DNA from: a candidate division TA06 bacterium
GTDB lineage: Bacteria; Edwardsbacteria; AC1; EtOH8
DNA length: 64,000 nucleotides
Direction: 5' to 3'
Assembly: GCA_016235665.1 (NCBI GenBank)
Contig: JACRJI010000013.1
Location: forward strand, 143,095-207,094
The position numbers were made by a program, and so were the translations under genes. Below the pieces are notes generated by a model. It did not search any database and had not been told where the DNA came from. It saw only the letters and a program-made list of their open reading frames with translations. Positions 38,299 to 53,336 of the stretch are shown here, in pieces (position 1 is the stretch's first letter; every line of letters starts with the position of its first letter).

Positions 38299-39186
<888 letters not shown>

Positions 39187-41037: not shown

Positions 41038-41534
41038 GGACGGCAGGGGAGATCGAGGCGGAGATCCTGGAGCTGGCCCAAAAAGAGGGCTACACCCTGA
41101 ACCCGGACCGGGAGATCAGGGAAGGGATCATAGAGGGCATCGCAGTCAATGAAGAGCGGCTGGGATACTGGAACTGCCCCTGCCGCAGGGCTTCGGGCGA
41201 CCGCAACACCGATCTGGACATAGTGTGCCCCTGCCAGTACCGGGACGCCGATCTGAAAGAACACGGCCGGTGTTACTGCGCGCTGTATGTCAACCAAGAG
41301 TATCTTGGCCGGGGATCGCCGCCGGAGCCGATACCGGAGAGAAGGCCTATTTCCAAGGTTCAAAAGGTTGTAAAGGCGGAAAATGTTCAAGAGGTTCCGC
41401 CGGGGAAGGAAGAAGACATAAAGGTTTGGAGATGCACGGTCTGCGGGTATCTCTGCGCCAGAAGCGAGGCCCCGCCCATCTGTCCCATCTGCCGGGCCAA
41501 GAAGGAGAGGTTCGAGGAATTTAGCCTTGTATAA
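41034..41534 (+). CDS. ferredoxin-thioredoxin reductase catalytic-subunit-like protein fused to a C-terminal rubredoxin-type zinc ribbon
   Basis: FTR-C signature CPC(x16)CPC(x14)CYC, including WNCPCRR...DIVCPCQYRD...HGRCYCALYV. C-terminal CTVCGY...CPICRA rubredoxin knuckles. The track ORF 40830 is in-frame upstream read-through. ATG at 41034 overlaps the glutaredoxin stop. Confidence 0.7.
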   Translation: MRTAGEIEAEILELAQKEGYTLNPDREIREGIIEGIAVNEERLGYWNCPCRRASGDRNTDLDIVCPCQYRDADLKEHGRCYCALYVNQEYLGRGSPPEPIPERRPISKVQKVVKAENVQEVPPGKEEDIKVWRCTVCGYLCARSEAPPICPICRAKKERFEEFSLV

Positions 41535-41555
41535 ATGTTATTTTAAGTATTTTAT

Positions 41556-41595
41556 GAAAAATCCCCCAAAAAATATTTTTGGGGGATTTTTCATT
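41556..41595 (+). terminator. rho-independent terminator (GAAAAATCCCCCAAAAAA-ta-TTTTTGGGGGATTTTTC)
   Basis: Perfect long stem with flanking T-run after the FTR-rubredoxin gene. Confidence 0.85.
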
Positions 41596-41647
41596 AGTTG
41601 TTTTATCTTAAATATTTGACAAAAATGGTTAAAATTACAAGCAATCC

Positions 41648-41661
41648 TGACATAAATGTCA
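41648..41661 (+). promoter_or_regulatory. 14-bp perfect palindrome TGACATAAATGTCA (candidate enhancer-binding-protein site, UAS-1)
   Basis: About 200 bp upstream of a sigma-54-type promoter. A second near-identical palindrome lies 101 bp downstream. Confidence 0.4.
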
Positions 41662-41749
41662 AAAGGCATGACAAATAGGTCATGGTAACATAACAATATA
41701 AAATGCAATGTGTTGAAAAGTAAAAAAATCTTAATAACGCGTCGAACAG

Positions 41750-41763
41750 GACATTTATGTCAG
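41750..41763 (+). promoter_or_regulatory. palindrome GACATTTATGTCAG (candidate UAS-2)
   Basis: 13/14 identical to the reverse complement of UAS-1. Centre lies about 95 bp upstream of the -24 element. Confidence 0.4.
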
Positions 41764-41848
41764 GTTTTTAATAAAAAAGTATTAATTATTAAAAACAATC
41801 AAATTAATAACTATATGAACAACAAATGATTAGATTACGTATAAAATT

Positions 41849-41863
41849 ATGGCACAGTAATTG
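41849..41863 (+). promoter_or_regulatory. sigma-54 (-24/-12) promoter TGGCAC-N5-TTGC
   Basis: Exact match to the RpoN consensus TGGCACnnnnnTTGC, about 58 nt upstream of the first small secreted paralog. Confidence 0.6.
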
Positions 41864-41920
41864 CTATTATAATAGAATGAATAAACTTAGAAAATACTAA
41901 CTTTAAACAAAGGGTTTAAA

Positions 41921-42250
41921 ATGAAAAAAGCAATTTTCGGGGTTCTGTTTGTTGCGATAATTGCTTCACTTGCTTTTGCCGGGATATTTCTTTGTTATGG
42001 CTATGCAAGTGTTGGCGAAGGCTGGACAATTTCATGTCCAAGTATAAGCAACACGGGAACAGATATAACAGATTCAGATGGGTATTTTTCAATTACTAGA
42101 GGTGATGTACCAGCTGGCACCGAGTATTATTTGAAAGCCACTAAAACGGGGTATATAGCAATGTATAGTGCAATTTATACCTTCGGTGGTTCGACATATG
42201 GTGATAATTTAGGAAATGTTGCATTTCATAAGGGACTGCCAGTGGAATAA
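41921..42250 (+). CDS. small secreted protein, paralog family member 1 (109 aa)
   Basis: Sec signal peptide MKKAIFGVLFVAIIASLAFA. Family motifs GWTISCPS, YYLKA and GG..G.V.F. AT-rich coding sequence. Confidence 0.7.
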   Translation: MKKAIFGVLFVAIIASLAFAGIFLCYGYASVGEGWTISCPSISNTGTDITDSDGYFSITRGDVPAGTEYYLKATKTGYIAMYSAIYTFGGSTYGDNLGNVAFHKGLPVE

Positions 42251-42432
42251 GGAAATAACATTACCGAATGTATTCTAAATTTATTCACAAATCCTCCTGG
42301 CTTAGTTTACAAAGTCAAAAGGGACTCACAGCATTAGAGAGAAATGGTATCAATAAAGCAGTGCGGCACCTTTGGAATTACATTCTGCTTAAAGTGTAAT
42401 AACTTAGAGGGAACTTTAGAAAGGATTTATTA

Positions 42433-42780
42433 ATGAAGAAGATTTTACTTGGTGTAATTCTTGTAGCAAGCATTGCTTCAGTTGCTTTTGCTTTGCCTTG
42501 GATGGTAACAGCTACTTCAACCAATGTTAAAGGATGGACGATTTCTGTACCCGGCGCACCGACCTCAATTCCAAATGTTGCAAATCAAGGCGACTCAGGG
42601 TCAGGTTTTTATATACAATGGTCAGGCACTGCTCCAGCAACTGGCGGCTATTATTGCAAAGCAGATTCAACCGGAAAAGCCTCAAGATATTATGGTTGGT
42701 GGTGGTATGATGTTACTTATGGGGATACACAACTTGGAGCAATTACATTCGGGACCAGGCTGCCAGCTAATCCATATTAA
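42433..42780 (+). CDS. small secreted protein, paralog family member 2 (115 aa)
   Basis: Signal peptide MKKILLGVILVASIASVAFA. Family motifs GWTISVPG, YYCKADSTG and G..TF. Confidence 0.65.
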   Translation: MKKILLGVILVASIASVAFALPWMVTATSTNVKGWTISVPGAPTSIPNVANQGDSGSGFYIQWSGTAPATGGYYCKADSTGKASRYYGWWWYDVTYGDTQLGAITFGTRLPANPY

Positions 42781-42982
42781 TCAATAGTAATAAAGTTAAC
42801 AATCAATAAAAATCCCTCTAAGTTATTTCTCTTTTCACATAGGATAAACTGTCTGTTTTATTATAAGTAACATTTAAATACTATGGAAAATGAAACAATC
42901 TGGCATAACGGTAAAAGTTATAACAAATAACAATAACAAAAACTAAAAAAGTGAGTGGTAAAACTCAAGAAAGGACCGGTAA

Positions 42983-43321
42983 ATGAAAAAAGCGATCATC
43001 ATCCTATCACTTCTCGTACTATGTGCCAGTTCAATAGCACTAGCAGTACCTGCCTGGTGCAATGGGAAGGCAAAATTGGGGATAAAATATTTAAATGGCT
43101 GGACAATACAAGTAAGTAACGGGACTTATGGTTGGGCGATAGCGCAGCCAGACTCAGGGTATTTTGGCATGTCATACTCTACGCATCCGCCTGCCGGTTA
43201 TTTTTCTTTTACAGCAGATTCCTCTGGCCAATCACGGCTATTTTCAAATGAATACTATTATGACGGATCTTCCTATGGGGTGCAGTACGGTACGGTACCA
43301 TTTTATACTTCGCCCAGATAA
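42983..43321 (+). CDS. small secreted protein, paralog family member 3 (112 aa)
   Basis: Signal peptide MKKAIIILSLLVLCASSIALA. Motifs NGWTIQVS, FTADSSG and YG..P. Confidence 0.65.
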   Translation: MKKAIIILSLLVLCASSIALAVPAWCNGKAKLGIKYLNGWTIQVSNGTYGWAIAQPDSGYFGMSYSTHPPAGYFSFTADSSGQSRLFSNEYYYDGSSYGVQYGTVPFYTSPR

Positions 43322-43406
43322 ACGATAAACGTACATTCACGTTTAGTTTTTCAATGAACTGAAACTTACTGCCAGTTCAATAATAAATATACATCATGCG
43401 AAAATT

Positions 43407-43421
43407 ATGGTATGGTAATTG
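43407..43421 (+). promoter_or_regulatory. sigma-54-like promoter TGGTAT-N5-TTGC upstream of paralog 4
   Basis: GG and GC dinucleotides at canonical -24/-12 spacing within an ~85-bp leader that is ~80% identical to the leader of paralog 1. Confidence 0.45.
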
Positions 43422-43480
43422 CGTTAATAATGTATTGAATAAACTTAAAAAACACTAACTTAAAAAACAAAGGACTTCAA

Positions 43481-43813
43481 ATGAAAAAAGCAATTTTCGG
43501 GATTCTGTTTATCTCAATATTTGTAGCAGGGGCATTTGCTGCATTGTTTCTATGCGATGGAAAAGCAAGTTTAGGAACTGGTTGGACAATATCATGTCCT
43601 TCAATTGCTGGCACTGGAACATGGACAACCACCTCAGATAGTTTATTTGCAATAGTTAGAACTACGACACCACAGACAGGAACCTACTACTATTTAAAAG
43701 CAGAAAGCGGATCAACAACGCGTTATTCTGATTGGTACCAATATGGAGGTGGCATGGATCACCTAGGCTTAGTGAACTTTAATTTAACTAGACCTCCTCT
43801 AATGGAACAATAA
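43481..43813 (+). CDS. small secreted protein, paralog family member 4 (110 aa)
   Basis: Signal peptide MKKAIFGILFISIFVAGAFA, nearly identical to member 1. Motifs GWTISCPSI, YYYLKAESG and GG....G.V.F. Confidence 0.7.
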   Translation: MKKAIFGILFISIFVAGAFAALFLCDGKASLGTGWTISCPSIAGTGTWTTTSDSLFAIVRTTTPQTGTYYYLKAESGSTTRYSDWYQYGGGMDHLGLVNFNLTRPPLMEQ

Positions 43814-43842
43814 ATTAAAATATTTTAAGTTTATTCATAAAA

Positions 43843-45122: not shown

Positions 45123-46805
45123 TTACTTCTTCTGTTCCTTTGACCAGCTGTCCTTCAAGCCCACCGTGCGGTTGAAGACAGGCTTGTCCTTGGTGGAATT
45201 CTTTGAATCCACGCAGAAATATCCCTGGCGCAGGAACTGGAACTTTTCGCCCGGTTTGGCGTTCCGTAATCCCGGCTCCAGCTTGCAGTCCTTCAGCACG
45301 GTCAAAGAATTCGGGTTGACCGGACTTTCGGTGGAGGGAGTGGGATCGGTGAAGAGCTGCTCGTACAAACGCACCTCGCCGGAAACCGCGTCCGCGGCGC
45401 TGACCCAGTGCAGGGTGCTTTTCACCTTGCGGCCGTCGGGGGAGTCGCCGCCTTTGGTGGCCGGGTCATATTCGCATCTTAGTTCTGTGATATTGCCTTT
45501 ATCATCCTTTACCGCCTCTATGCATTTTATGTAATAGGCGTGCTTAAACCGCACCTCCTTGCCGGGGGAGAGACGGAAAAAGCCCTTGGGCGGGGTTTCC
45601 ATGAAATCCTCCTGCTCGATATACAGCTCGCGGCCGAATGGCACCCGGCGCTTGCCGGCCGAGGCGTCCTCGGGGTTGTTGTCGCATTCGATCATCTCGC
45701 TTTGGCCCGCCGGATAGTTTTCGATCACAACCTTCAACGGCCGCAGCACGGCCATCACCCGGGGGGCGGTCTTGTTCAGTTCCTCGCGGATGTAGTGCTC
45801 CAGCAGGGCGATGTCCACCAGGCTGTCGCGTTTGGCCACCCCTATCCGGTCGCAGAAATTTTTGATCGAAGCTGAAGTGTAGCCCCGGCGCCTTAATCCC
45901 GCCAAAGTGGGCAGACGGGGGTCGTCAAAGCCCTCCACCACGCCGTCCCTGACCAGTTCGATGAACTTGCGCTTGCTCATCACGGTGTAGTTCATGTTAA
46001 GCCGGGCAAATTCTATCTGCCGGGGATGATAGATGCCCAGCTGGTCCAAAAACCAGTCGTAGAGCGGCCGGTGGTCCTCGTACTCCAGCGAGCAGAGGGA
46101 ATGGGTGATGCCCTCAATTGAATCCTCCAGGCCGTGGGCCCAGTCGTACATGGGGTAGATCTTCCATTTGGCGCCCTGGCGGTGGTGTTCCTGATGCAGG
46201 ATGCGGTACATCACCGGGTCACGCATGTTCAGATTGGGGTGGGCCATGTCAATCTTGGCCCGTAGGGTCTTGGCCCCGTCGGGGAATTCCCCGGCCTTCA
46301 TGCGGCTGAACAGGTCCAGATTCTCCTCGACCGTGCGGTCGCGGTTGGGGCTGTTCTGGCCCGGCTCGGAAAGGTTTCCCCGGGTCTTGCTAACTTCTTC
46401 GGCGCTCAGGTCGCAGACGTAGGCCTTGTTCTTCTTGATCAGCTCCACCGCCCAGTCATACATCTTTTCAAAGTAATCCGAGCCGAAGAACAGCCGGTCG
46501 CCGAACTCGGCCCCGATCCATTTGACGTCCTCGATGATGGCGTCAACGAACTCCTGCTCCTCCTTGGCCGGGTTGGTGTCGTCGAAGCGGAGGTTGAACA
46601 GCCCGCCGAACTCCTTGGCGATGCCGTAGTCTATCCAGATGGCCTTGGCGTGGCCGATGTGGAGGTAGGCGTTGGGCTCCGGGGGGAAGCGGGTGTGAAC
46701 CTTGGCAAAGCGGCCGCTCTTAAGGTCCTCGGCCACGGCCTCGCGGATGAAGTTGGTAGCGGCCGCGCCTTCGATGGGGGTCTTGATGTTTTCGGTGTTG
46801 CTCAT
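45123..46805 (-). CDS. glnS: glutaminyl-tRNA synthetase
   Basis: Class I HIGH motif (LHIGHAKA), VMSKR-type KMSKS motif, GlnRS anticodon-binding C-terminus. Start at MSNTEN. Confidence 0.9.
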
Positions 46806-46917
46806 TTTTTTAATTTTATGCTTGACTTTTAGTATATTTTGCAGTATATTACTAGAGTCATCTACCAATGGAGGTAGAAGGACATCGGGAGCCGCTCGCA
46901 AGGGCGGCTGCTGTCAT

Positions 46918-47421
46918 TTATACCCTTTTTTCGTAATGTTTTGTTAATGTCTTATTGTATTCTTCATCTACATGGAATGCAGTAACCCAGTAATACTTTG
47001 TTTTTTTATGTTGTAAAATCAAACAATAATTGTATTCTCTTAGCCAAATATTTCTACGTACCCCTTTATTTTGGGGACCTTCCTTATAATCAAAAATTGT
47101 AATTTCGGGTCTTGTTCCGCTAGTCATAATAACTTTAGCCCATGGTAATCTTTCGGCACGCCGGTAATCTGGAAGCCTTTCTTTAATTCCGCCTTCAGAC
47201 AATTGATCTTTACTAACAACATGCCAAAATCCCTCTTCTTTGCCCTGTCCATCTTCATTTATCGTTCTATTATAATCGACACGTAGGTTATTGTGAAAGG
47301 TTGAATTCCATTTAAAATCGGTGACAAAAATTTTATAAAGTTCATCTACGATAGTACTCCATTCACCAGCCATTGGTAATAAGGGTGGCAAAAAACTGCC
47401 ATTGTCGTTACTTTGTGGCAT
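46918..47421 (-). CDS. hypothetical 167-aa protein (no recognisable family), AT-rich, translationally coupled to the DUF3800 gene
   Basis: 14-nt overlap with the stop of the upstream DUF3800 gene. GC content is far below the genome average. No signal peptide or TM segment. Confidence 0.55.
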   Translation of the reverse strand: MPQSNDNGSFLPPLLPMAGEWSTIVDELYKIFVTDFKWNSTFHNNLRVDYNRTINEDGQGKEEGFWHVVSKDQLSEGGIKERLPDYRRAERLPWAKVIMTSGTRPEITIFDYKEGPQNKGVRRNIWLREYNYCLILQHKKTKYYWVTAFHVDEEYNKTLTKHYEKRV

Positions 47422-48124
47422 TATTTTTCTCTCTCGGCAAAAAAGTAAAAATATTAAACTTATCTTCCCATGGTGCTGTTGTTTCTGTTAAAGTAAGTTT
47501 AACTTTTGCTTTTATCAACTCTATTAGTGAAAGTTTAGCTGTACTTTCTATTAAACCTCTATTTACATAAGAGAGTGCACCAATAAAGAAATCTGCAATT
47601 TGTAATATTTCACTTTCTTTTGATCTAATTTGTTGCATTATATTAATTATCTCATGCGAATTGGTTGGATAACTATTCTTTAAAATATCTTTTAATGTGT
47701 TTATTTTTATTTGACTTTGGGTGTCCTTAATATCCATAAAAATATTATATACGGACTCGCATGTAATCATATTGCGCAGTAAGTAATAATACATTTTATA
47801 ATAAAATGAGTCATGGCTACCTTGATTATAATATTGATGATCAAGGTTTTTTTTATTTTTTACGACAACACATCTAAAACCTAAATCGTTTTGGGAGAAA
47901 AAATATTCAATTATATCTCTATAATAATCTAATCGTGAGTTTGATACTTTTTGCCATTTTAATTCCCCACGACAGCTATGCTTTTCTTTTAATTGACGTA
48001 ACTCTTCTGTTATATGTCGAACTTTTTCTATAGGACATTTTACAGCCCCTAATAGCATGACTTCTTGCTTGTCATGCTCCAGATGACAGCTTTCATCACA
48101 ATAAATATTAATAATAGAAGCCAT
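47408..48124 (-). CDS. DUF3800-family protein
   Basis: N-terminal IINIYCDES (DES motif) and C-terminal LQIADFFIGAL (QxxD motif), which from memory are the two signature motifs of Pfam DUF3800. AT-rich. Start placed at MASIIN. Confidence 0.65.
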   Translation of the reverse strand: MASIINIYCDESCHLEHDKQEVMLLGAVKCPIEKVRHITEELRQLKEKHSCRGELKWQKVSNSRLDYYRDIIEYFFSQNDLGFRCVVVKNKKNLDHQYYNQGSHDSFYYKMYYYLLRNMITCESVYNIFMDIKDTQSQIKINTLKDILKNSYPTNSHEIINIMQQIRSKESEILQIADFFIGALSYVNRGLIESTAKLSLIELIKAKVKLTLTETTAPWEDKFNIFTFLPREKNNATK

Positions 48125-48149
48125 GCTCGATTCTCTTAAGGTTGTTAAT

Positions 48150-49610
48150 TTATCCAACATTAACCGTTAGCATTTCTATACTCTTTTGAACTCTTTTCAA
48201 TGTCTCCTCTTTCCCTAGTATCTCCGCCAGTTCCGTGGCCCCGCCGGGGGTGACCTCGCGGCCGGAGAGGGCTATGCGCAGAGGCGTAAGGAAGGTGTTG
48301 GCCTTTACCCCCAGCGTCTCTACCACCACATACAGCGCCTGCTTGATGGTCTCATGGTCCCAGCTTCCCAGTTTCTCCAGTTCCGCCCGGCAGGTCTTAA
48401 GGTATTCCAGGGAATTCATCAGGTCGGTCTTGGCCTTTTTGTTGACGAACATTTCCTTTGCATATTCCGGCAGGGCATCGATGAAATCCACCCGGGCCGG
48501 GATGTCCGACAGCACCACGGTGCGCTGTTGCATCAGACCGGACAGCTTGCGCAGGTCAATTCCCGGGCTTTTGACGGCCTGCTGCAGCCAAGGCAGGGCT
48601 GCTTCGTAAAAGATCTCGGGCGTCATTTTGCGGATATACTCGCCGTTCATCCATTTCAACTTCTCCACGTCGAAGATGGCCGGGGAATTGTTCAGCCCGG
48701 CCACGGAGAAGACCTTCTTCAACTCATCCAATGAAAATATCTCCCGTTCATCCTTGGGGTTCCATCCCAGCAGGGCGATGTAATTGACGATAGCCTCCTT
48801 GAGATACCCCTGATTATAGAAATCTTCGAAGGAGGCGTCGCCCTCGCGCTTGGAAAGCTTCTTTCCTGCTGCCTTCATGATCAAGGGCAGGTGGATGTAG
48901 GCCGGGATCTCCCATTCCAGGGCCTGATAGATCAGGTTGTACTTGGGGGCCGAGGACAGGTATTCGCTGCCGCGGATGACGTGCGATATCTGCATCAGGT
49001 GGTCGTCCACCACGTTGGCGAAGTTGTAGGTGGGCAGGCCGTCTGACTTCAACAGGATCCCGTCCTCCAAGGTGGAGTTCTCCACCGTCACTGTGCCGTA
49101 GACCAGGTCGTCAAAGCTGGTGGAGCCCCCGCGGGGGATCTTCTGGCGAATCACTGAAGGCTCGCCCGAGGCCGCCCGTTTCTTGGCCTCTTCCGGACCG
49201 ATGTCCCGGCAGGGGTCCTGGAATTTGACGGCAGTATTGTTCCCGCCGGCTTCCTGGCGCAGGGACTCCAGCTTCTCCTTGCTGCAGAAACAGTAATAGC
49301 CGCCGTCCCTGGCGATAAGCTTTTCGGCCCATTCCTTATAGATGCTTTTCCGCTGGCTCTGGACATAGGGGCCGAAGGGGCCGCCGATATCCGGGCCCTC
49401 GTCATGTTCCAGACCCACCAGTTTCATTGTATTATAGATCACCTCGACCGAGCCCTCCACCAGCCGTTCCTGGTCGGTGTCCTCGATCCGCAGGATGAAC
49501 TTACCGTTCATGGTGCGGGCGATCAGGTAGGCATAGAGGGCGGTGCGAAGATTGCCGATGTGCATGTAGCCGGTGGGGCTGGGGGCGAAGCGGGTGCGGA
49601 CAGTAGGCAT
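48150..49610 (-). CDS. gltX: glutamyl-tRNA synthetase
   Basis: RTRFAPSPTGYMHIGNLRTALYAYL (HIGH), KLSKR KMSKS-like motif, GluRS architecture. Start at MPTVRTRF. Confidence 0.9.
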   Translation of the reverse strand: MPTVRTRFAPSPTGYMHIGNLRTALYAYLIARTMNGKFILRIEDTDQERLVEGSVEVIYNTMKLVGLEHDEGPDIGGPFGPYVQSQRKSIYKEWAEKLIARDGGYYCFCSKEKLESLRQEAGGNNTAVKFQDPCRDIGPEEAKKRAASGEPSVIRQKIPRGGSTSFDDLVYGTVTVENSTLEDGILLKSDGLPTYNFANVVDDHLMQISHVIRGSEYLSSAPKYNLIYQALEWEIPAYIHLPLIMKAAGKKLSKREGDASFEDFYNQGYLKEAIVNYIALLGWNPKDEREIFSLDELKKVFSVAGLNNSPAIFDVEKLKWMNGEYIRKMTPEIFYEAALPWLQQAVKSPGIDLRKLSGLMQQRTVVLSDIPARVDFIDALPEYAKEMFVNKKAKTDLMNSLEYLKTCRAELEKLGSWDHETIKQALYVVVETLGVKANTFLTPLRIALSGREVTPGGATELAEILGKEETLKRVQKSIEMLTVNVG

Positions 49611-49943: not shown

Positions 49944-51035
49944 ATGAAGCCTCAAGCCAGGCCCAACATCCAGGGTATCAGCCCATACATCCCGGGCAAG
50001 CCCATCGAAGAAGTGCGCCGGGAGCTGGGCATAAGGGGTCAGATCATCAAGCTGGCCTCCAACGAAAACCCGCTGGGGCCTTCGCCCAAGGCGGTCAAAG
50101 CCCTGCGCAAATCGCTTAAGGAGATCAACCTTTATCCCGATGACGGGTGCTTTGCCTTGAGCAAGAGGCTGGCCTCCCATCTGGGAGTCAACGAGGACCA
50201 GCTGATCTTCGGCAACGGCTCGGTGGATGTGATAGAGTTCATCACCAAGACCTTCGTGGCTCCCGGCGACCATGTGGTCATCGCCGAGGGGGCTTTCATC
50301 ATGTACAAGATAGCGGCCAAGATGGCCGACGCCAGGCCCTCGCTGATACCCCTGAAAAATTACCTCCACGACCTGGACGCCATGGCGGCGGCCGTCACCC
50401 CCCAGACCAAGGTGGTCTACATCGCCAACCCCAACAATCCCACCGGCACCATGCTGACCGAAGCCCAGGTCAAGGCCTTCATGAAGAAGATCCCGGAGAG
50501 CTGCGTGGTGGTGTTCGACGAAGCCTATTCCGAATACATCGACCGGCCAGATTTTCCCGATACCATCAAACTGCTCAAGGACTGGCCCAACGCCATAGTG
50601 CTCCACACCTTTTCCAAGATCTACGGCCTGGCCGGATTGAGGGTGGGCTACGGGGTGGGAAGCCCCGAGCTGATCGCCCAGATCCGCAAGGTGCGCCTGC
50701 CTTTCAACATCAGCCTAAGCGGGCAGGTGGCCTGCCTGGCGGCTTTGGACGATGCCAAACATCTGGCCAAAAGCAAGAAGCTCAACACCGAGGGCAAAGA
50801 ATATCTGTACAAACAATTACAGGTCTTAGGGGTTTCCTATGTTCCGTCAGAAGGGAACTTCATCCTGATAGACCCCAAGACGGACTCCATGCCGGTCTTT
50901 ACCGCCCTGCAGAAACTGGGGGTCATCGTCCGGCCGGTCAAGAACTACGGATACCAGACCGAACTGCGGGTGACCATCGGCACCGCCCGGCAGAACCGGA
51001 AGCTGATAGGGGCGTTGAAGAAGGTGCTGAAATAG
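49944..51035 (+). CDS. hisC: histidinol-phosphate aminotransferase
   Basis: KLASNENPLGPSP motif. PLP lysine context (TFSKIYGLAGLRVGY). Confidence 0.85.
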   Translation: MKPQARPNIQGISPYIPGKPIEEVRRELGIRGQIIKLASNENPLGPSPKAVKALRKSLKEINLYPDDGCFALSKRLASHLGVNEDQLIFGNGSVDVIEFITKTFVAPGDHVVIAEGAFIMYKIAAKMADARPSLIPLKNYLHDLDAMAAAVTPQTKVVYIANPNNPTGTMLTEAQVKAFMKKIPESCVVVFDEAYSEYIDRPDFPDTIKLLKDWPNAIVLHTFSKIYGLAGLRVGYGVGSPELIAQIRKVRLPFNISLSGQVACLAALDDAKHLAKSKKLNTEGKEYLYKQLQVLGVSYVPSEGNFILIDPKTDSMPVFTALQKLGVIVRPVKNYGYQTELRVTIGTARQNRKLIGALKKVLK

Positions 51036-51187
51036 GGTCTTTTCAATCAACCGGCGACAATCAGAAGTGTTCCATTGGCGGTACCCAGTATCCACTAGTC
51101 AGTAATCTATAACCGGTGAATACTGGATAGTGAATAGTGGATAGTGTATAGTCAAAACGACTTTATAATCTGTAACAAGCAATTCAG

Positions 51188-51874
51188 TTGATGTCTCGCA
51201 AACCGGTGATAGCCATAGACGGCCCGGAGGCCACCGGCAAAAGTAAAACCGACAGGATGGTTGCCCAGAAGCTGGGGTACCTGTACATCGACACCGGGGC
51301 CATGTACAGGGCAGCCGGTTTAAAGGCCCTGCGTCTGGGGATCTCATTCAGCGACCGGGAAGCCATAGCCAAAATGATGGAACAGACGGACATCAGCCAG
51401 GAGGTCACTTCCAACGGCCCGGCCACTTTTCTGGACGGGGTTGATGTCAGCGGGCTGATCCGCAGCCCGGAGGTCTCCCAGGCCGCCTCGGACATATCGG
51501 CCATCACTTCGGTCCGCCAAAGGCTGGTGGCGCTGCAGCAGCGGATGGGCCGGGCGGGCGGGGTGGTGATGGAGGGCCGGGACATAACCACGGTGGTCTT
51601 TCCCACGGCCGAGGTCAAGGTCTTCATGAAGGCCTCCATCCAACAGCGGGCCTGCAGGCGCAAAGCCGAACTGGAGGCCAACGGCATGACCATGGACCTG
51701 AAAGAACTGGAGAAGCAGATAGAGAACCGCGACCGGCAGGACAGCCAGAGGGACGACAGCCCCCTGACCTGCACCCGGGATTCATTGGTAATAGATACTT
51801 CAACCCTGACCATAGACCAGCAGGTGGAGATGGTGATGGCCCGGGCGGAAAAGATACAAAAGGAGCAGGCATGA
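51188..51874 (+). CDS. cmk: cytidylate kinase
   Basis: IAIDGPEATGKS P-loop, GAMYRA motif. Confidence 0.85.
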   Translation: MMSRKPVIAIDGPEATGKSKTDRMVAQKLGYLYIDTGAMYRAAGLKALRLGISFSDREAIAKMMEQTDISQEVTSNGPATFLDGVDVSGLIRSPEVSQAASDISAITSVRQRLVALQQRMGRAGGVVMEGRDITTVVFPTAEVKVFMKASIQQRACRRKAELEANGMTMDLKELEKQIENRDRQDSQRDDSPLTCTRDSLVIDTSTLTIDQQVEMVMARAEKIQKEQA

Positions 51875-52509: not shown

Positions 52510-53336
52510 AGATAAAAGTGGCCCAAAGCGCCGGGTTCTGCTTCGGGGTGAAACGGGCGGTGAACCTGGCTTTTGAGATAGCCAAGAAATCTAAAACGCC
52601 GGTATATACCCTGGGACCCATCATTCACAATCCCCAGGTGGTGGCCCAGCTGGAGGCCTGCGGGGTCAAGGCGGTCAGCAGCCCATCCAGAATCAAAAAG
52701 GGCACGGTCATCATCCGCTCCCACGGGGTGCACCCCAAGGTCATGGCCGGCCTCAGGAAAAAAGGGATCAGGATCGTGGACGCCACCTGCCCCTTTGTGA
52801 CCAAGGCCCAGAAAGCCGCGGCCCTGCTTAAATCCGAAGGACGCCAGGTGGTGATAGTGGGAGAGGCCGAGCATCCCGAGGTGGTGGCCTTAAAGGGGTA
52901 TGCCGGCCCCAACTCGGTGGTCTACAACCACAACGATTTCAAGGTCCAGAAGAAACTGGGGGTGCTGGCCCAGACCACGCTTTCGGCCGGGGATTTTATA
53001 GAGGCCCTGATATCTTTCGGGAGGAAGGCCGAAGACATCCACATCGTCAACACCATCTGTCAGGCTACCAAAGTGCGGCAGCAGGATACCATGAGGCTGG
53101 CCAAGGATTCCGACGTGATGATCGTGGTGGGCGGACGCAACTCGGCCAACACTTCGCGCCTGCTGGAACTCTGCCGTAAAGTGGGCCGTCCGGCTTATCA
53201 TGTGGAAACAGAACGGGAGCTGAAGGCCAAATGGTTCCAAAACTGCTCCAAGGCCGGGGTCACGGCCGGGGCGTCCACTCCGGACAGCATGGTCAAAAAA
53301 GTTGTGGACCGGATCAAGGAACTTAAATCTAAATAA
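52506..53336 (+). CDS. ispH: 4-hydroxy-3-methylbut-2-enyl diphosphate reductase
   Basis: MKIKVAQSAGFCFGVKRAV N-terminus and three conserved Cys. ATGA overlap with plsC. Confidence 0.85.
   Translation: MKIKVAQSAGFCFGVKRAVNLAFEIAKKSKTPVYTLGPIIHNPQVVAQLEACGVKAVSSPSRIKKGTVIIRSHGVHPKVMAGLRKKGIRIVDATCPFVTKAQKAAALLKSEGRQVVIVGEAEHPEVVALKGYAGPNSVVYNHNDFKVQKKLGVLAQTTLSAGDFIEALISFGRKAEDIHIVNTICQATKVRQQDTMRLAKDSDVMIVVGGRNSANTSRLLELCRKVGRPAYHVETERELKAKWFQNCSKAGVTAGASTPDSMVKKVVDRIKELKSK

What the first reader, a model, noticed from the sequence alone, without database searches (positions are those of the whole stretch)
46806..48160. AT-rich two-gene insertion (DUF3800 + unknown 167-aa partner) wedged between gltX and glnS: candidate undescribed defence/toxin-type module
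Two aminoacyl-tRNA synthetase genes on the same strand are separated by ~1.3 kb. The GC content and codon usage of this stretch are obviously foreign to the rest of the window (roughly 35% versus ~60%). It encodes a DUF3800-family protein carrying the family's DES and QxxD motifs (IYCDES, LQIADFFIGAL). DUF3800 is an uncharacterised family that I recall as predicted nuclease/RNase-H-like and common in variable islands. Its stop overlaps by 14 nt the start of a 167-aa protein with no recognisable motifs, which suggests translational coupling. The operon-like placement gltX-[DUF3800-ORF167]-glnS suggests the pair was dropped into a housekeeping locus. Two-gene cassettes of this type are typical of phage-defence or toxin-antitoxin systems, and this pairing is not one I recognise.
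Basis: partly seen in the sequence, partly recalled or inferred. Interest (0 to 1): 0.8.

Follow-up and report, generated by a model that had tools for sequence, protein, structure and literature searches.

The report
P1-type rlfA-rlfB module with sRNA
The AT-rich insert between gltX and glnS is a horizontally acquired copy of the phage-P1 rlfA-rlfB gene pair, already listed as an untested phage-defence candidate, and it also carries a conserved small RNA gene that the databases searched do not describe.

Summary
About 1.38 kb of 26-38% GC DNA sits between gltX and glnS, and a relative about 91% identical in DNA has the two genes adjacent with a 90-nt spacer.

The pair is not undescribed. ORF1 (238 aa) is DUF3800 with an RNase HII-like fold. 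ORF1 and the 167-aa partner match PADLOC candidate PDC-M04 A/B. They are homologs of phage P1 RlfA (45% identity) and RlfB (hhalign probability 99.2%).

Directly after the partner's stop codon, on the opposite strand (window 46855-46919, +), lies a ~65-nt small RNA gene. It has a sigma-70-like promoter, a 5' hairpin with a conserved internal loop, and an intrinsic terminator.
- It is present in 46 of 47 cassette loci from more than 15 phylum-level lineages, and in P1 itself, where it is unannotated.
- It shows strong covariation and matches no Rfam 15 family.
- Solo copies occur in phage contigs, some abutting tRNA genes, and beside truncated rlfB remnants.

Neighbours are enriched for RM/BREX/DISARM methyltransferases, and three loci fuse the DUF3800 domain to one.

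Best reading (inferred, not shown): an RNA-controlled nuclease defence or addiction module. Its function remains untested.

The parts
47408..48124 (-). rlfA-like gene: DUF3800 protein of 238 aa with a predicted RNase HII-like fold.
46918..47421 (-). rlfB-like gene: 167-aa partner whose start overlaps the rlfA-like stop by 14 nt.
46855..46919 (+). Small RNA gene (~65 nt), convergent with rlfB. It has a 5' hairpin with a conserved internal loop, a short linker, and a GC-rich terminator hairpin with a U tail that ends on the rlfB stop codon.
   Evidence: Covariance model R1 gives 68.2 bits, E 4e-14, and this is the only hit in the 64-kb window. MFE is -32.1 kcal/mol, z -5.1, with the same fold as the consensus. 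On a MAFFT alignment of 37 loci, 94.5% of cells are paired, 13 of 17 pairs have compensatory changes, and 0 of 500 shuffles reach the observed values. G-U cells far outnumber A-C cells (about 78 to 9), which fixes the transcribed strand. A terminator-like site lies at 46890-46909 (+). No Rfam 15 family matches.
46822..46850 (+). Sigma-70-type promoter of the small RNA (TTGACT, 17 nt, TATATT). It also marks the right-hand edge of the inserted DNA.
   Evidence: The promoter scan matches 10 of 12 positions. Equivalent TTGACA-type promoters lie at the same distance in most loci. Mean best score is 9.4 of 12 against 7.8 in shuffles. TTGAC occurs in 33 of 43 loci on this strand and 3 of 43 on the other. 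Homology to the empty site resumes at 46821.
46822..48201 (.). Extent of the DNA with no counterpart in the empty site of the close relative. About 1,380 nt replace 121 nt.
   Evidence: blastn of L068 against the window: L068 7409 aligns to window 48202 and L068 7531 to window 46821. The last ~50 nt of gltX (48150-48201) are still homologous at protein level but diverged. That tail is AT-rich and fast-evolving in all relatives, so the true left edge is probably near 48141-48149.
48150..49607 (-). gltX (flanking host gene).
   Evidence: TIGR00464 E 7e-156. 93% identical to the gltX of the empty-site relative.
45123..46805 (-). glnS (flanking host gene).
   Evidence: TIGR00440 E 3e-210. Syntenic in L068.

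Best explanation
Shown:
- The stretch is a horizontally acquired three-part module of the phage-P1 rlfA-rlfB family, which equals PADLOC candidate PDC-M04.
- It comprises an RNase HII-fold DUF3800 protein, its overlapping (probably translationally coupled) 167-aa partner, and a convergently transcribed, highly structured ~65-nt small RNA with its own promoter and terminator.
- It was inserted into the gltX-glnS spacer. All three parts look intact.

Inferred:
- It works as an RNA-controlled nuclease module of the toxin-antitoxin / abortive-infection kind.
- The constitutively made small RNA binds the RlfA/RlfB protein(s) through its conserved stem and internal loop, and keeps a nuclease activity latent.
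- That activity could come from the DUF3800 RNase H-like active site, from a RelE-like RNase activity of RlfB, or from both.
- Loss or titration of the RNA, or interference with an associated restriction-modification system during infection, would release it.
- Phages, and genomes that have lost the proteins, keep solo copies of the RNA as an antidote.
- In this genome the module stands alone. It has no room for a promoter of its own (25-nt spacer), so it is probably transcribed by read-through from gltX.
For: Identity.

Foreign origin and empty site.

Folds.

Co-conservation of A and B: 49 of 49 loci, and matching contig lengths.

Small RNA:
- It is conserved in 46 of 47 cassette loci and absent from 3 cassette-free control loci.
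- It shows covariation and has a promoter and a terminator.
- It is present right after P1 rlfB at 35.8 bits, E 5e-8.

Link to defence:
- The module is embedded between pglZ and brxL, in type I and type IIG RM loci, and next to Qat.
- Eco57I-type methyltransferase is the commonest neighbour family, 8 of 122 neighbours.
- In L031, L032 and L034 the DUF3800 domain is fused to the C-terminus of such a methyltransferase. A PLD-SNF2 helicase precedes it and rlfB follows.

Antidote idea:
- 12 of 14 judgeable phage contigs that carry the RNA core lack rlfA and rlfB.
- Two copies abut phage tRNA genes.
- Several bacterial or metagenomic copies keep an intact promoter and RNA beside only the last 15-45 codons of rlfB.

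Accessory character in P1:
- rlfA and rlfB are non-essential in P1 (PMC10695390).
- They lie in a low-GC variable cargo region of P1-like plasmids (PMC9603915, PMC6906374).
Against: - No experiment shows defence, toxicity or RNA binding for any family member. PDC-M04 is explicitly an untested candidate.
- I could not superpose the DUF3800 acidic residues on an RNase H active site.
- Many loci, including this one, sit among housekeeping genes with no defence gene nearby.
- P1 annotators linked the genes to lytic replication.
- Solo RNA copies in phages could mean the RNA has a role independent of RlfAB.
- One locus (L167) has the RNA in the same orientation as the genes.
- The orphan classification depends on HMM detection, on an exact-core pattern search, and on contig binning.
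Confidence: 0.5

Rival explanations
1. Replication-linked function, as annotated in P1. The RNase H-like RlfA would process an RNA-DNA hybrid formed by the small RNA, giving ColE1-like primer maturation or R-loop handling, with RlfB as a helper. The chromosomal copies would be remnants of such replicons.
For: - In P1, rlfA and rlfB lie directly downstream of repL/oriL and are annotated 'possibly associated with lytic replication'.
- The type 2 RNase H fold is clear.
- A dedicated small RNA is present.
- From my own knowledge: ColE1 uses RNase H and an antisense RNA.
Against: - CRISPRi knock-down of rlfA and rlfB does not impair P1 (PMC10695390).
- P1-like plasmids replace them with unrelated cargo.
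- Chromosomal copies sit inside RM and BREX operons or between housekeeping genes, with no replication initiator or origin nearby.
- Fusion to a DNA methyltransferase is hard to fit with replication.
Confidence: 0.1
2. Selfish mobile cassette. The RNase H-like DUF3800 protein would be a transposase-like or homing-type nuclease that inserts the cassette between conserved genes. The association with defence operons would then simply reflect where promoterless insertions are tolerated.
For: - The insertion into a 90-nt spacer is clean.
- The closest cassette (L075: A 69%, B 66% identical) lies in the same gltX-glnS spacer of a host whose GltX is only 61% identical.
- The cassette is always co-oriented with, and tightly packed behind, the upstream gene.
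- Cassette GC is often well below host GC.
- Truncated remnants exist.
Against: - No terminal inverted repeats or target-site duplication appear at the junctions.
- Two exact protein sequences, each found in 24 contigs, were always in one and the same context.
- There is one copy per locus and per window.
- Structural neighbours are RNase HII/HIII rather than DDE transposases.
Confidence: 0.1
3. An ordinary addiction module with no role against phages. The antisense small RNA would only regulate the rlfAB mRNA through its complementary 3' UTR, as in type I systems with convergent 3' overlap, and the module would merely stabilise the DNA it sits in.
For: - The RNA is convergent and exactly complementary to whatever rlfAB transcript reads past the stop codon. 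No sense-strand terminator is evident there.
- The genes overlap, as in toxin-antitoxin pairs.
- The family occurs on P1-type plasmid prophages.
Against: - The internal loop and flanking pairs of the RNA are conserved in sequence across more than 15 phylum-level lineages while the stems covary. This suggests protein recognition rather than simple antisense pairing.
- Solo copies far from any rlfAB mRNA exist in phages.
- One locus has the RNA in the sense orientation (L167).
- Enrichment next to, and fusion with, RM methyltransferases points to a defence context.
Confidence: 0.15

Closest known systems
Phage P1 rlfA-rlfB (the RlfB homolog in phage P7 is annotated rapB)
   Same: - The two-gene architecture is the same.
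- RlfA is 45% identical to ORF1.
- RlfB matches the partner family at hhalign probability 99.2%.
- The same small RNA lies antisense right after rlfB.
- The region is a low-GC accessory region.
   Different: - P1 carries it on a phage-plasmid next to the lytic replicon, with predicted promoters of its own and a C1 operator upstream.
- Here it is chromosomal, has no room for a promoter, and lies between two aminoacyl-tRNA synthetase genes.
- The function in P1 is also unknown.
- The small RNA is not annotated in the P1 record.
PADLOC PDC-M04 (phage defence candidate, guilt-by-embedding; bioRxiv 10.1101/2024.01.29.577857)
   Same: Both proteins hit the PDC-M04A and PDC-M04B models strongly. Relatives are embedded in BREX, RM and DISARM-like loci, as in that screen.
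   Different: - The catalogue entry is a two-protein cassette.
- It is untested.
- This copy is not embedded in a defence system.
DUF3800-associated RNA motifs (DUF3800-I to -XI; PMC5737381; Rfam RF02969, RF02968)
   Same: A structured RNA, often ending in an intrinsic terminator, is encoded next to a DUF3800 gene in either orientation.
   Different: - This RNA matches none of the Rfam 15 models, even at E up to 10 on three exemplars.
- It is tied to the RlfB-containing subfamily.
- I could not read the 2017 supplement to compare consensus drawings.
Type III toxin-antitoxin systems (ToxIN) and phage pseudo-ToxI antidotes (own knowledge)
   Same: In the proposed logic, a structured RNA holds a nuclease inactive, and phages carry copies of the RNA to escape.
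   Different: - ToxI is a tandem repeat array upstream of, and co-oriented with, the toxin gene, and the toxin processes it.
- Here there is a single-copy, convergent RNA with its own promoter, and there are two proteins.
- No activity is shown.
PrrC anticodon nuclease embedded in the EcoprrI type Ic RM locus (own knowledge)
   Same: An accessory nuclease cassette is embedded inside restriction-modification operons, suggesting a back-up triggered when restriction is inhibited.
   Different: - The proteins are unrelated: PrrC is an ABC-ATPase-type anticodon nuclease.
- No RNA component is known for PrrC.
- tRNA targeting by RlfB is only a weak structural hint.
Retron type VII (reverse transcriptase plus DUF3800; PMC7736814)
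   Same: A DUF3800 RNase H2-like protein is paired with a dedicated non-coding RNA in a defence-type module.
   Different: - There is no reverse transcriptase and no msr/msd RNA here.
- Retron DUF3800 proteins lack the Q of the QxxD motif, whereas this one keeps it.

Membership tests
Pfam DUF3800 (PF12686) | HMM score above the gathering threshold | tested here: met
   56.1 bits against a cut-off of 21, covering profile positions 1-148 of 149.
Pfam DUF3800 (PF12686) | N-terminal DE motif and C-terminal QxxD motif | tested here: met
   D10-E11 (CDES) and Q175-x-x-D178 (QIAD) are present and invariant in 38 homologs.
PADLOC PDC-M04 | Adjacent, co-oriented genes matching the PDC-M04A and PDC-M04B models | tested here: met
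   A: E 1.3e-90. B: E 1.6e-37. The genes overlap by 14 nt on the same strand.
Phage P1 RlfA/RlfB pair | Sequence homology of both proteins to RlfA and RlfB, in the same gene order | tested here: met
   A against RlfA: 45% identity, E 4e-72. B family against RlfB: hhalign probability 99.2%. Same order and overlap.
Type 2 RNase H (RNase HII/H2/HIII) | RNase H fold | tested here: met
Type 2 RNase H (RNase HII/H2/HIII) | DEDD catalytic carboxylates at equivalent structural positions, and RNA/DNA hybrid cleavage | tested here: inconclusive
   Invariant D10, E11, D131 and D178 lie on strand 1, after strand 4 and in a C-terminal helix, as expected topologically. No superposition or assay was possible. 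There is no sequence-level match to any PDB chain.
RelE/ParE-BECR RNase toxins | Significant fold match and a conserved basic/His/Tyr catalytic constellation | tested here: inconclusive
- Foldseek is not significant; best E is 0.26.
- There is no sequence match to any PDB chain.
- Invariant K61, H67, R82, R88, R91, R122 and Y132 exist, but I did not map them to an active site.
Rfam DUF3800 RNA motifs and all other Rfam 15 families | Covariance-model match | tested here: not met
   No DUF3800-* hit at E up to 10 on the window, L001 or P1 exemplars. There were only weak hits, below each family's gathering score, to unrelated families.
Type III toxin-antitoxin (ToxIN-like) | Tandem-repeat RNA antitoxin upstream of and co-transcribed with an endoRNase toxin | tested here: not met
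   There is a single RNA copy, convergent, with its own promoter.
Type I toxin-antitoxin | Antisense RNA pairing with the mRNA of a small membrane-active toxin peptide | tested here: not met
   The proteins are 238 and 167 aa, and their AF2 models are compact globular folds. Only the convergent antisense geometry is similar.
Transposon or insertion sequence | Terminal inverted repeats, target-site duplication, and multiple copies or contexts | tested here: not met
   None appear at the junctions against the empty site. Identical proteins are always in one context.
Validated anti-phage defence system | Experimentally shown protection against phage | not testable with these tools
   PDC-M04 is listed as untested. 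The 22 papers that mention DUF3800 and the P1 papers that mention rlfA or rlfB report no functional study.

The most novel reading that the evidence does not exclude
RlfA-RlfB-sRNA would be a new class of RNA-antitoxin defence or addiction system. A single, constitutively expressed, tightly folded ~65-nt RNA would restrain an RNase H-like nuclease complex that backs up methylation-based immunity. Phages would counter it by carrying the RNA themselves, sometimes inside their tRNA arrays. This would give the first functional explanation for the DUF3800-associated RNAs that have been unexplained since 2017, in a system (P1 in E. coli) that can be tested directly.
Probability: 0.3. Interest if true: 0.85.

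Novelty: new variant of a known kind. Interest (0 to 1): 0.62.

Why it matters
- DUF3800 proteins recur in retrons, in Cas12a2/a3 and Cas13 loci, and in defence islands. At least eleven unrelated structured RNAs are known to accompany them, yet neither the proteins nor the RNAs have a function.
- This locus shows that one widespread DUF3800 subfamily, the P1 rlfA-rlfB type, comes with a specific, strongly conserved small RNA. I found that RNA in no searched annotation or RNA-family database.
- The same RNA sits unannotated in phage P1, one of the best-studied and most tractable phages.
- The RNA also occurs alone in phage genomes, some copies next to tRNA genes, and beside decayed copies of the protein genes.
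- Together these points turn a purely computational puzzle into simple E. coli experiments on toxicity, rescue by the RNA, and phage challenge.
- For this genome itself the finding is modest: a recently acquired accessory module in a variable spacer between two synthetase genes.

Tried and rejected
1. Target-site duplication or terminal repeats. Aligning both junctions to the empty site showed none. A shared ATTAAC-type 8-mer is a post hoc match in AT-rich DNA.
2. Co-transfer of the gltX 3' end with the cassette by homologous recombination. The last 20 residues of GltX are equally diverged among all three genomes, and the tail is AT-rich in the empty-site relative too. I dropped this idea.
3. 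Recent mobility. Two exact DUF3800 sequences seen on dozens of contigs were always in the same context.
4. Known RNA families. Searches at gathering threshold and at E up to 10 gave only hits below each family's gathering score, to unrelated families.
5. Generic promoter and terminator scan of the region. Promoter-like sites are not above shuffled background overall. Only the comparative test across loci is convincing.
6. Sequence-profile searches of both families against PDB found nothing useful.
7. Foldseek of the partner against PDB was not significant. The afdb50 library was unavailable.
8. A recurrent protein partner for the orphan RNAs. All-against-all BLAST of their neighbours found no shared family beyond duplicate contigs.
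10. The small RNA as a leader or ribosome-binding site of a tiny ORF. By inspection, no start codon follows the AAGGAG-like sequence; a terminator follows instead.
11. Enrichment of aminoacyl-tRNA synthetase neighbours. I saw gltX/glnS here and in L075, and alaS about 0.8 kb upstream in L014. This is too few to test and is left as an observation.
Full report
**1. The observation**

ORF listing and composition confirm the description.
- On the minus strand, gltX (48150-49607) and glnS (45123-46805) are separated by 1,344 nt. GC in this stretch is 0.26-0.38, against 0.55-0.63 on both sides.
- The stretch holds a DUF3800 ORF and a 167-aa ORF (46918-47421) whose start overlaps the first ORF's stop by 14 nt.
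- The DUF3800 ORF was listed as 47408-48160. Its start is most likely the ATG at 48124, giving 238 aa, as in the NCBI model and all homologs.
- An exact protein match names the source as a candidate division TA06 bacterium.

**2. It is an insertion**

The closest relative in the databases, L068, has a GltX 93% identical and DNA about 91% identical. It has the same gene order (hisC, gltX, glnS, two rubrerythrin genes), but gltX and glnS are separated by only 90 nt.
- Homology to the window stops at 48202 and resumes at 46821. About 1,380 nt here replace 121 nt there.
- More distant relatives (GltX 77-80% identical) have other genes in this spacer, so it is a variable spot.
- I found no target-site duplication or terminal repeats.
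- I considered that the diverged gltX tail was imported together with the cassette. This was rejected: that tail is AT-rich and fast-evolving in every genome compared.
- The closest cassette elsewhere is L075 (A 69% and B 66% identical, DNA 73%). It also lies between gltX and the start of a glnS-like gene, in a host whose GltX is only 61% identical. I cannot tell whether this reflects exchange through flanking homology, site preference, or ancient presence with losses.
- The 33% GC of the cassette in a 58% GC genome argues for recent arrival. Cassettes in high-GC hosts are themselves GC-rich.

**3. The pair is a known family**
- ORF1 passes the Pfam DUF3800 threshold.
- Both proteins hit the PADLOC models PDC-M04A (E 1.3e-90) and PDC-M04B (E 1.6e-37).
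- PDC-M04 is one of 145 untested "phage defence candidates". They were derived from genes embedded in BREX, DISARM and type I RM systems (bioRxiv 10.1101/2024.01.29.577857).
- The partner is homologous to RlfB of phage P1 and RapB of P7 (hhalign probability 99.2%).
- ORF1 is 45% identical to P1 RlfA, which RefSeq annotates as a DUF3800 protein.
- In P1 the pair lies just after repL and is annotated "possibly associated with lytic replication".
- CRISPRi shows both P1 genes are non-essential (PMC10695390).
- In P1-like plasmids the region is a low-GC variable cargo site, sometimes replaced by other genes (PMC9603915, PMC6906374).
- About 100 plasmid records, mostly E. coli P1-like elements, carry an RlfB homolog.

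**4. Proteins**

RlfA-like protein:
- This agrees with published statements on DUF3800 (PMC7736814, PMC10910872).
- Invariant D10, E11, D131 and D178, plus a C13-H14 / H96 / N100 / H104 cluster, suggest an active enzyme. I could not superpose the active sites.

RlfB-like protein:
- The model is confident (pLDDT 90.9), but the fold has no strong neighbour.
- Foldseek finds nothing significant, and profile searches against PDB sequences find nothing.
- I treat "RelE-like RNase" as a lead only.

**5. Co-conservation and context**
- All 49 loci fetched through the partner have a DUF3800 homolog directly upstream on the same strand. Two of these are degenerate.
- The 42 genome loci come from more than 15 phylum-level lineages.
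- The cassette is typically packed tightly behind a co-oriented upstream gene.
- Defence contexts: pglZ-[AB]-brxL; a type I RM locus with a Schlafen/AlbA_2 gene; a Qat system next to an MmeI-type enzyme; a type IIG-like methyltransferase with a specificity subunit; an HsdR gene; PLD-SNF2 helicases.
- Housekeeping contexts: smc-[AB]-trpA; sdhB-[AB]-sucA; a treY-like alpha-amylase-family gene upstream (identified by eye); alaS about 0.8 kb upstream.
- Among 122 neighbours within two genes in 39 non-redundant loci, the commonest Pfam family is the Eco57I-type methyltransferase (8), followed by N6_Mtase (6).
- The commonest PADLOC hits are type II, type I and type IIG methyltransferases, DrmMI, PglX, HKD+Snf2 and AbiLi.
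- In L031, L032 and L034 the DUF3800 domain is the C-terminus of a ~1,500-aa Eco57I/MmeI-type methyltransferase, and rlfB follows it. In L031 and L032 a PLD-SNF2-type helicase gene lies just upstream; Pfam confirmed this for L031, and the L032 protein has a similar N-terminus by eye. This fusion is the strongest hint that the module works together with modification-based immunity.

**6. The missed third component**

In essentially every locus, the ~60 nt after the rlfB stop codon are more conserved than the proteins. Read on the opposite strand, they form a small RNA gene with these parts in order:
- a TTGACA-type -35 box, 16-18 nt, and a -10 box;
- then, 4-7 nt later in most loci, 5'-CUCAUCUACC-loop-GGUAGAAGGAG, a hairpin with an internal loop;
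- a short linker;
- a GC-rich hairpin followed by a U-run that ends at the rlfB stop codon.

Evidence for the RNA:
- On a MAFFT alignment of 37 loci, RNAalifold predicts these two helices. Of 17 pairs, 13 show compensatory changes, 94.5% of cells are paired, none of 500 shuffles reaches any measure, and slid registers give 38-61% pairing.
- The window's own copy carries a compensatory C-G to G-C swap at the base of the 5' hairpin.
- G-U cells outnumber A-C cells by about 78 to 9. Together with the promoter and the U-tail, this fixes the transcribed strand.
- The promoter signal is significant across loci. Mean best score is 9.4 of 12 against 7.8 in shuffles (maximum 8.1 of 200). TTGAC occurs in 33 of 43 loci on this strand and 3 of 43 on the other, with a modal distance of 33-37 nt.
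- A covariance model finds exactly one strong hit (31-80 bits) right after rlfB in 46 of 47 cassette loci, including 8 not used to build it. It finds none in three cassette-free control loci and one in the 64-kb window: 46855-46919 (+), 68.2 bits.
- The window RNA folds into the consensus structure at -32.1 kcal/mol, z -5.1.
- The model also finds the RNA in phage P1 immediately after rlfB, on the complementary strand. This is L076 4025-3955, equal to NC_005856 about 52977-52907 (35.8 bits, E 5e-8). It is preceded by TTGAAA-17-TAGATT, and nothing is annotated there.
- No Rfam 15 family matches three exemplars even at E up to 10, and this includes the published DUF3800-associated motifs. That DUF3800 genes are accompanied by diverse structured RNAs of unknown function is already known (PMC5737381).

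**7. Solo copies of the RNA**
- An exact-core pattern search found 15 phage contigs, all confirmed by the model at 33-55 bits. Only 2 of the 14 judgeable contigs have rlfA nearby.
- In a 241-kb phage contig the RNA ends one base before tRNA-Asn, inside a six-tRNA array.
- In another phage contig the RNA starts at the 3' end of tRNA-Tyr.
- In 80 metagenome loci read, 45 of 71 judgeable have convergent rlfB and/or rlfA, and 26 are orphans.
- Several orphans, and a second copy in L022, keep an intact promoter and RNA beside only the last 15-45 codons of rlfB. So the RNA is retained when the proteins are lost.
- One locus (L167) has the RNA in the sense orientation.
- No other protein family recurs next to the orphans.

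**8. Interpretation**

Shown: the family identity, the foreign origin, the three-part architecture, the structure of the RNA and its strand, and the association with RM, BREX and DISARM-type methyltransferases.

Inferred: the module is an RNA-controlled nuclease system of the toxin-antitoxin / abortive-infection kind.
- The conserved stem and internal loop of the RNA would be a protein-binding site that keeps the nuclease latent.
- That nuclease would be RlfA/RlfB: the RNase H-like site, perhaps with an RNase activity of RlfB.
- The solo copies in phages and beside decayed cassettes would be antidotes, by analogy with phage pseudo-ToxI and orphan antitoxins (own knowledge).
- Embedding in RM operons recalls PrrC in the EcoprrI locus (own knowledge).
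- I put about 0.5 on this overall reading. Rivals are an ordinary antisense-regulated addiction module (0.15), a replication-linked role as in the P1 annotation (0.1) and a selfish mobile cassette (0.1).
- Which protein is the effector cannot be decided from the sequence.

**9. Novelty and score**

The finding as written, a DUF3800 gene plus a partner as an undescribed pairing, is not new. It is P1 rlfAB and PADLOC PDC-M04, and this copy is an ordinary new member.

What appears new is the dedicated small RNA, its presence in P1, and its solo copies in phages. I found it in no searched annotation, in no Rfam family, and in none of the papers I could read that mention DUF3800 or rlfA/rlfB. I could not check the 2017 supplement or the 2004 P1 paper.

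I therefore rate it a new variant of a known kind, with interest 0.62. It makes the long-standing DUF3800-RNA puzzle directly testable in E. coli and P1.

Noticed in passing
window 41524-43838: A second AT-rich insertion of about 2.3 kb (GC 0.32-0.44) is absent from the close relative L068. It carries four tandem paralogous ORFs of 109-115 aa (41921-42250, 42433-42780, 42983-43321, 43481-43813). All start MKK with a signal-peptide-like N-terminus and are 34-55% identical to one another.
   Followed up: partly
window about 51031-51190: The relative L068 has a 256-aa SBP_bac_3 (solute-binding protein) gene between hisC and cmk. The window lacks it, and only about 160 nt remain there.
   Followed up: no
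L076 3955-4025 (-) = phage P1 NC_005856 about 52907-52977, complement: An unannotated small RNA gene lies right after rlfB in phage P1. It has the promoter TTGAAA-17-TAGATT, the 5' hairpin CUCAUCUACC...GUAGAAAGAG, and a terminator overlapping the rlfB stop codon.
   Followed up: partly
L078 7617-7748; L090 3283-3426; L155 about 2047-2168: Orphan copies of the small RNA in phage or metagenome contigs directly abut tRNA genes. One ends one base before tRNA-Asn in a six-tRNA array of a 241-kb phage contig. One starts at the 3' end of tRNA-Tyr. One lies about 30 nt after tRNA-Cys.
   Followed up: partly
L031 3448-7983; L032 3265-7947; L034 1393-6096: Eco57I/MmeI-type DNA methyltransferases of about 1,500 aa carry a C-terminal DUF3800 domain, and an rlfB homolog follows. 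The small RNA is found in L032 and L034. In L031 and L032 a PLD-SNF2-type helicase gene lies just upstream (Pfam-confirmed in L031 only).
   Followed up: partly
L022 11150-11214 (-); L128, L129, L135, L141, L165: Solo small-RNA genes keep intact promoters next to only the last 15-45 codons of rlfB. In L022 the copy follows a Schlafen/AlbA_2-HATPase_c_4 gene and precedes an Mrr-type endonuclease gene.
   Followed up: partly
window 45123-49607; L075 2-667; L014 3869-6502: Aminoacyl-tRNA synthetase genes lie next to or close to the cassette in three loci. These are gltX and glnS here, gltX in L075, and alaS about 0.8 kb upstream in L014. This may be chance; there are too few cases to test.
   Followed up: no
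L167 2-1098: This is the one locus where the small-RNA core lies in the same orientation as rlfA-rlfB rather than convergent.
   Followed up: no
L089 1093-1722 (-); L082 874-1569 (-): In two phage contigs, rlfA homologs (41-43% identical) are paired with a longer or much more divergent partner. In L089 it is a 209-aa ORF that the RlfB profile does not detect. The same small RNA is still convergent.
   Followed up: no
L026 6037-6768: A second, separate DUF3800 gene lies about 500 nt upstream of the rlfA-rlfB pair in an Elusimicrobiota contig.
   Followed up: no
window 38299-39186: A 295-aa ORF corresponds to the Phage_integrase-family gene of L068. It lies a few kb from the AT-rich insert at 41524-43838.
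   Followed up: no
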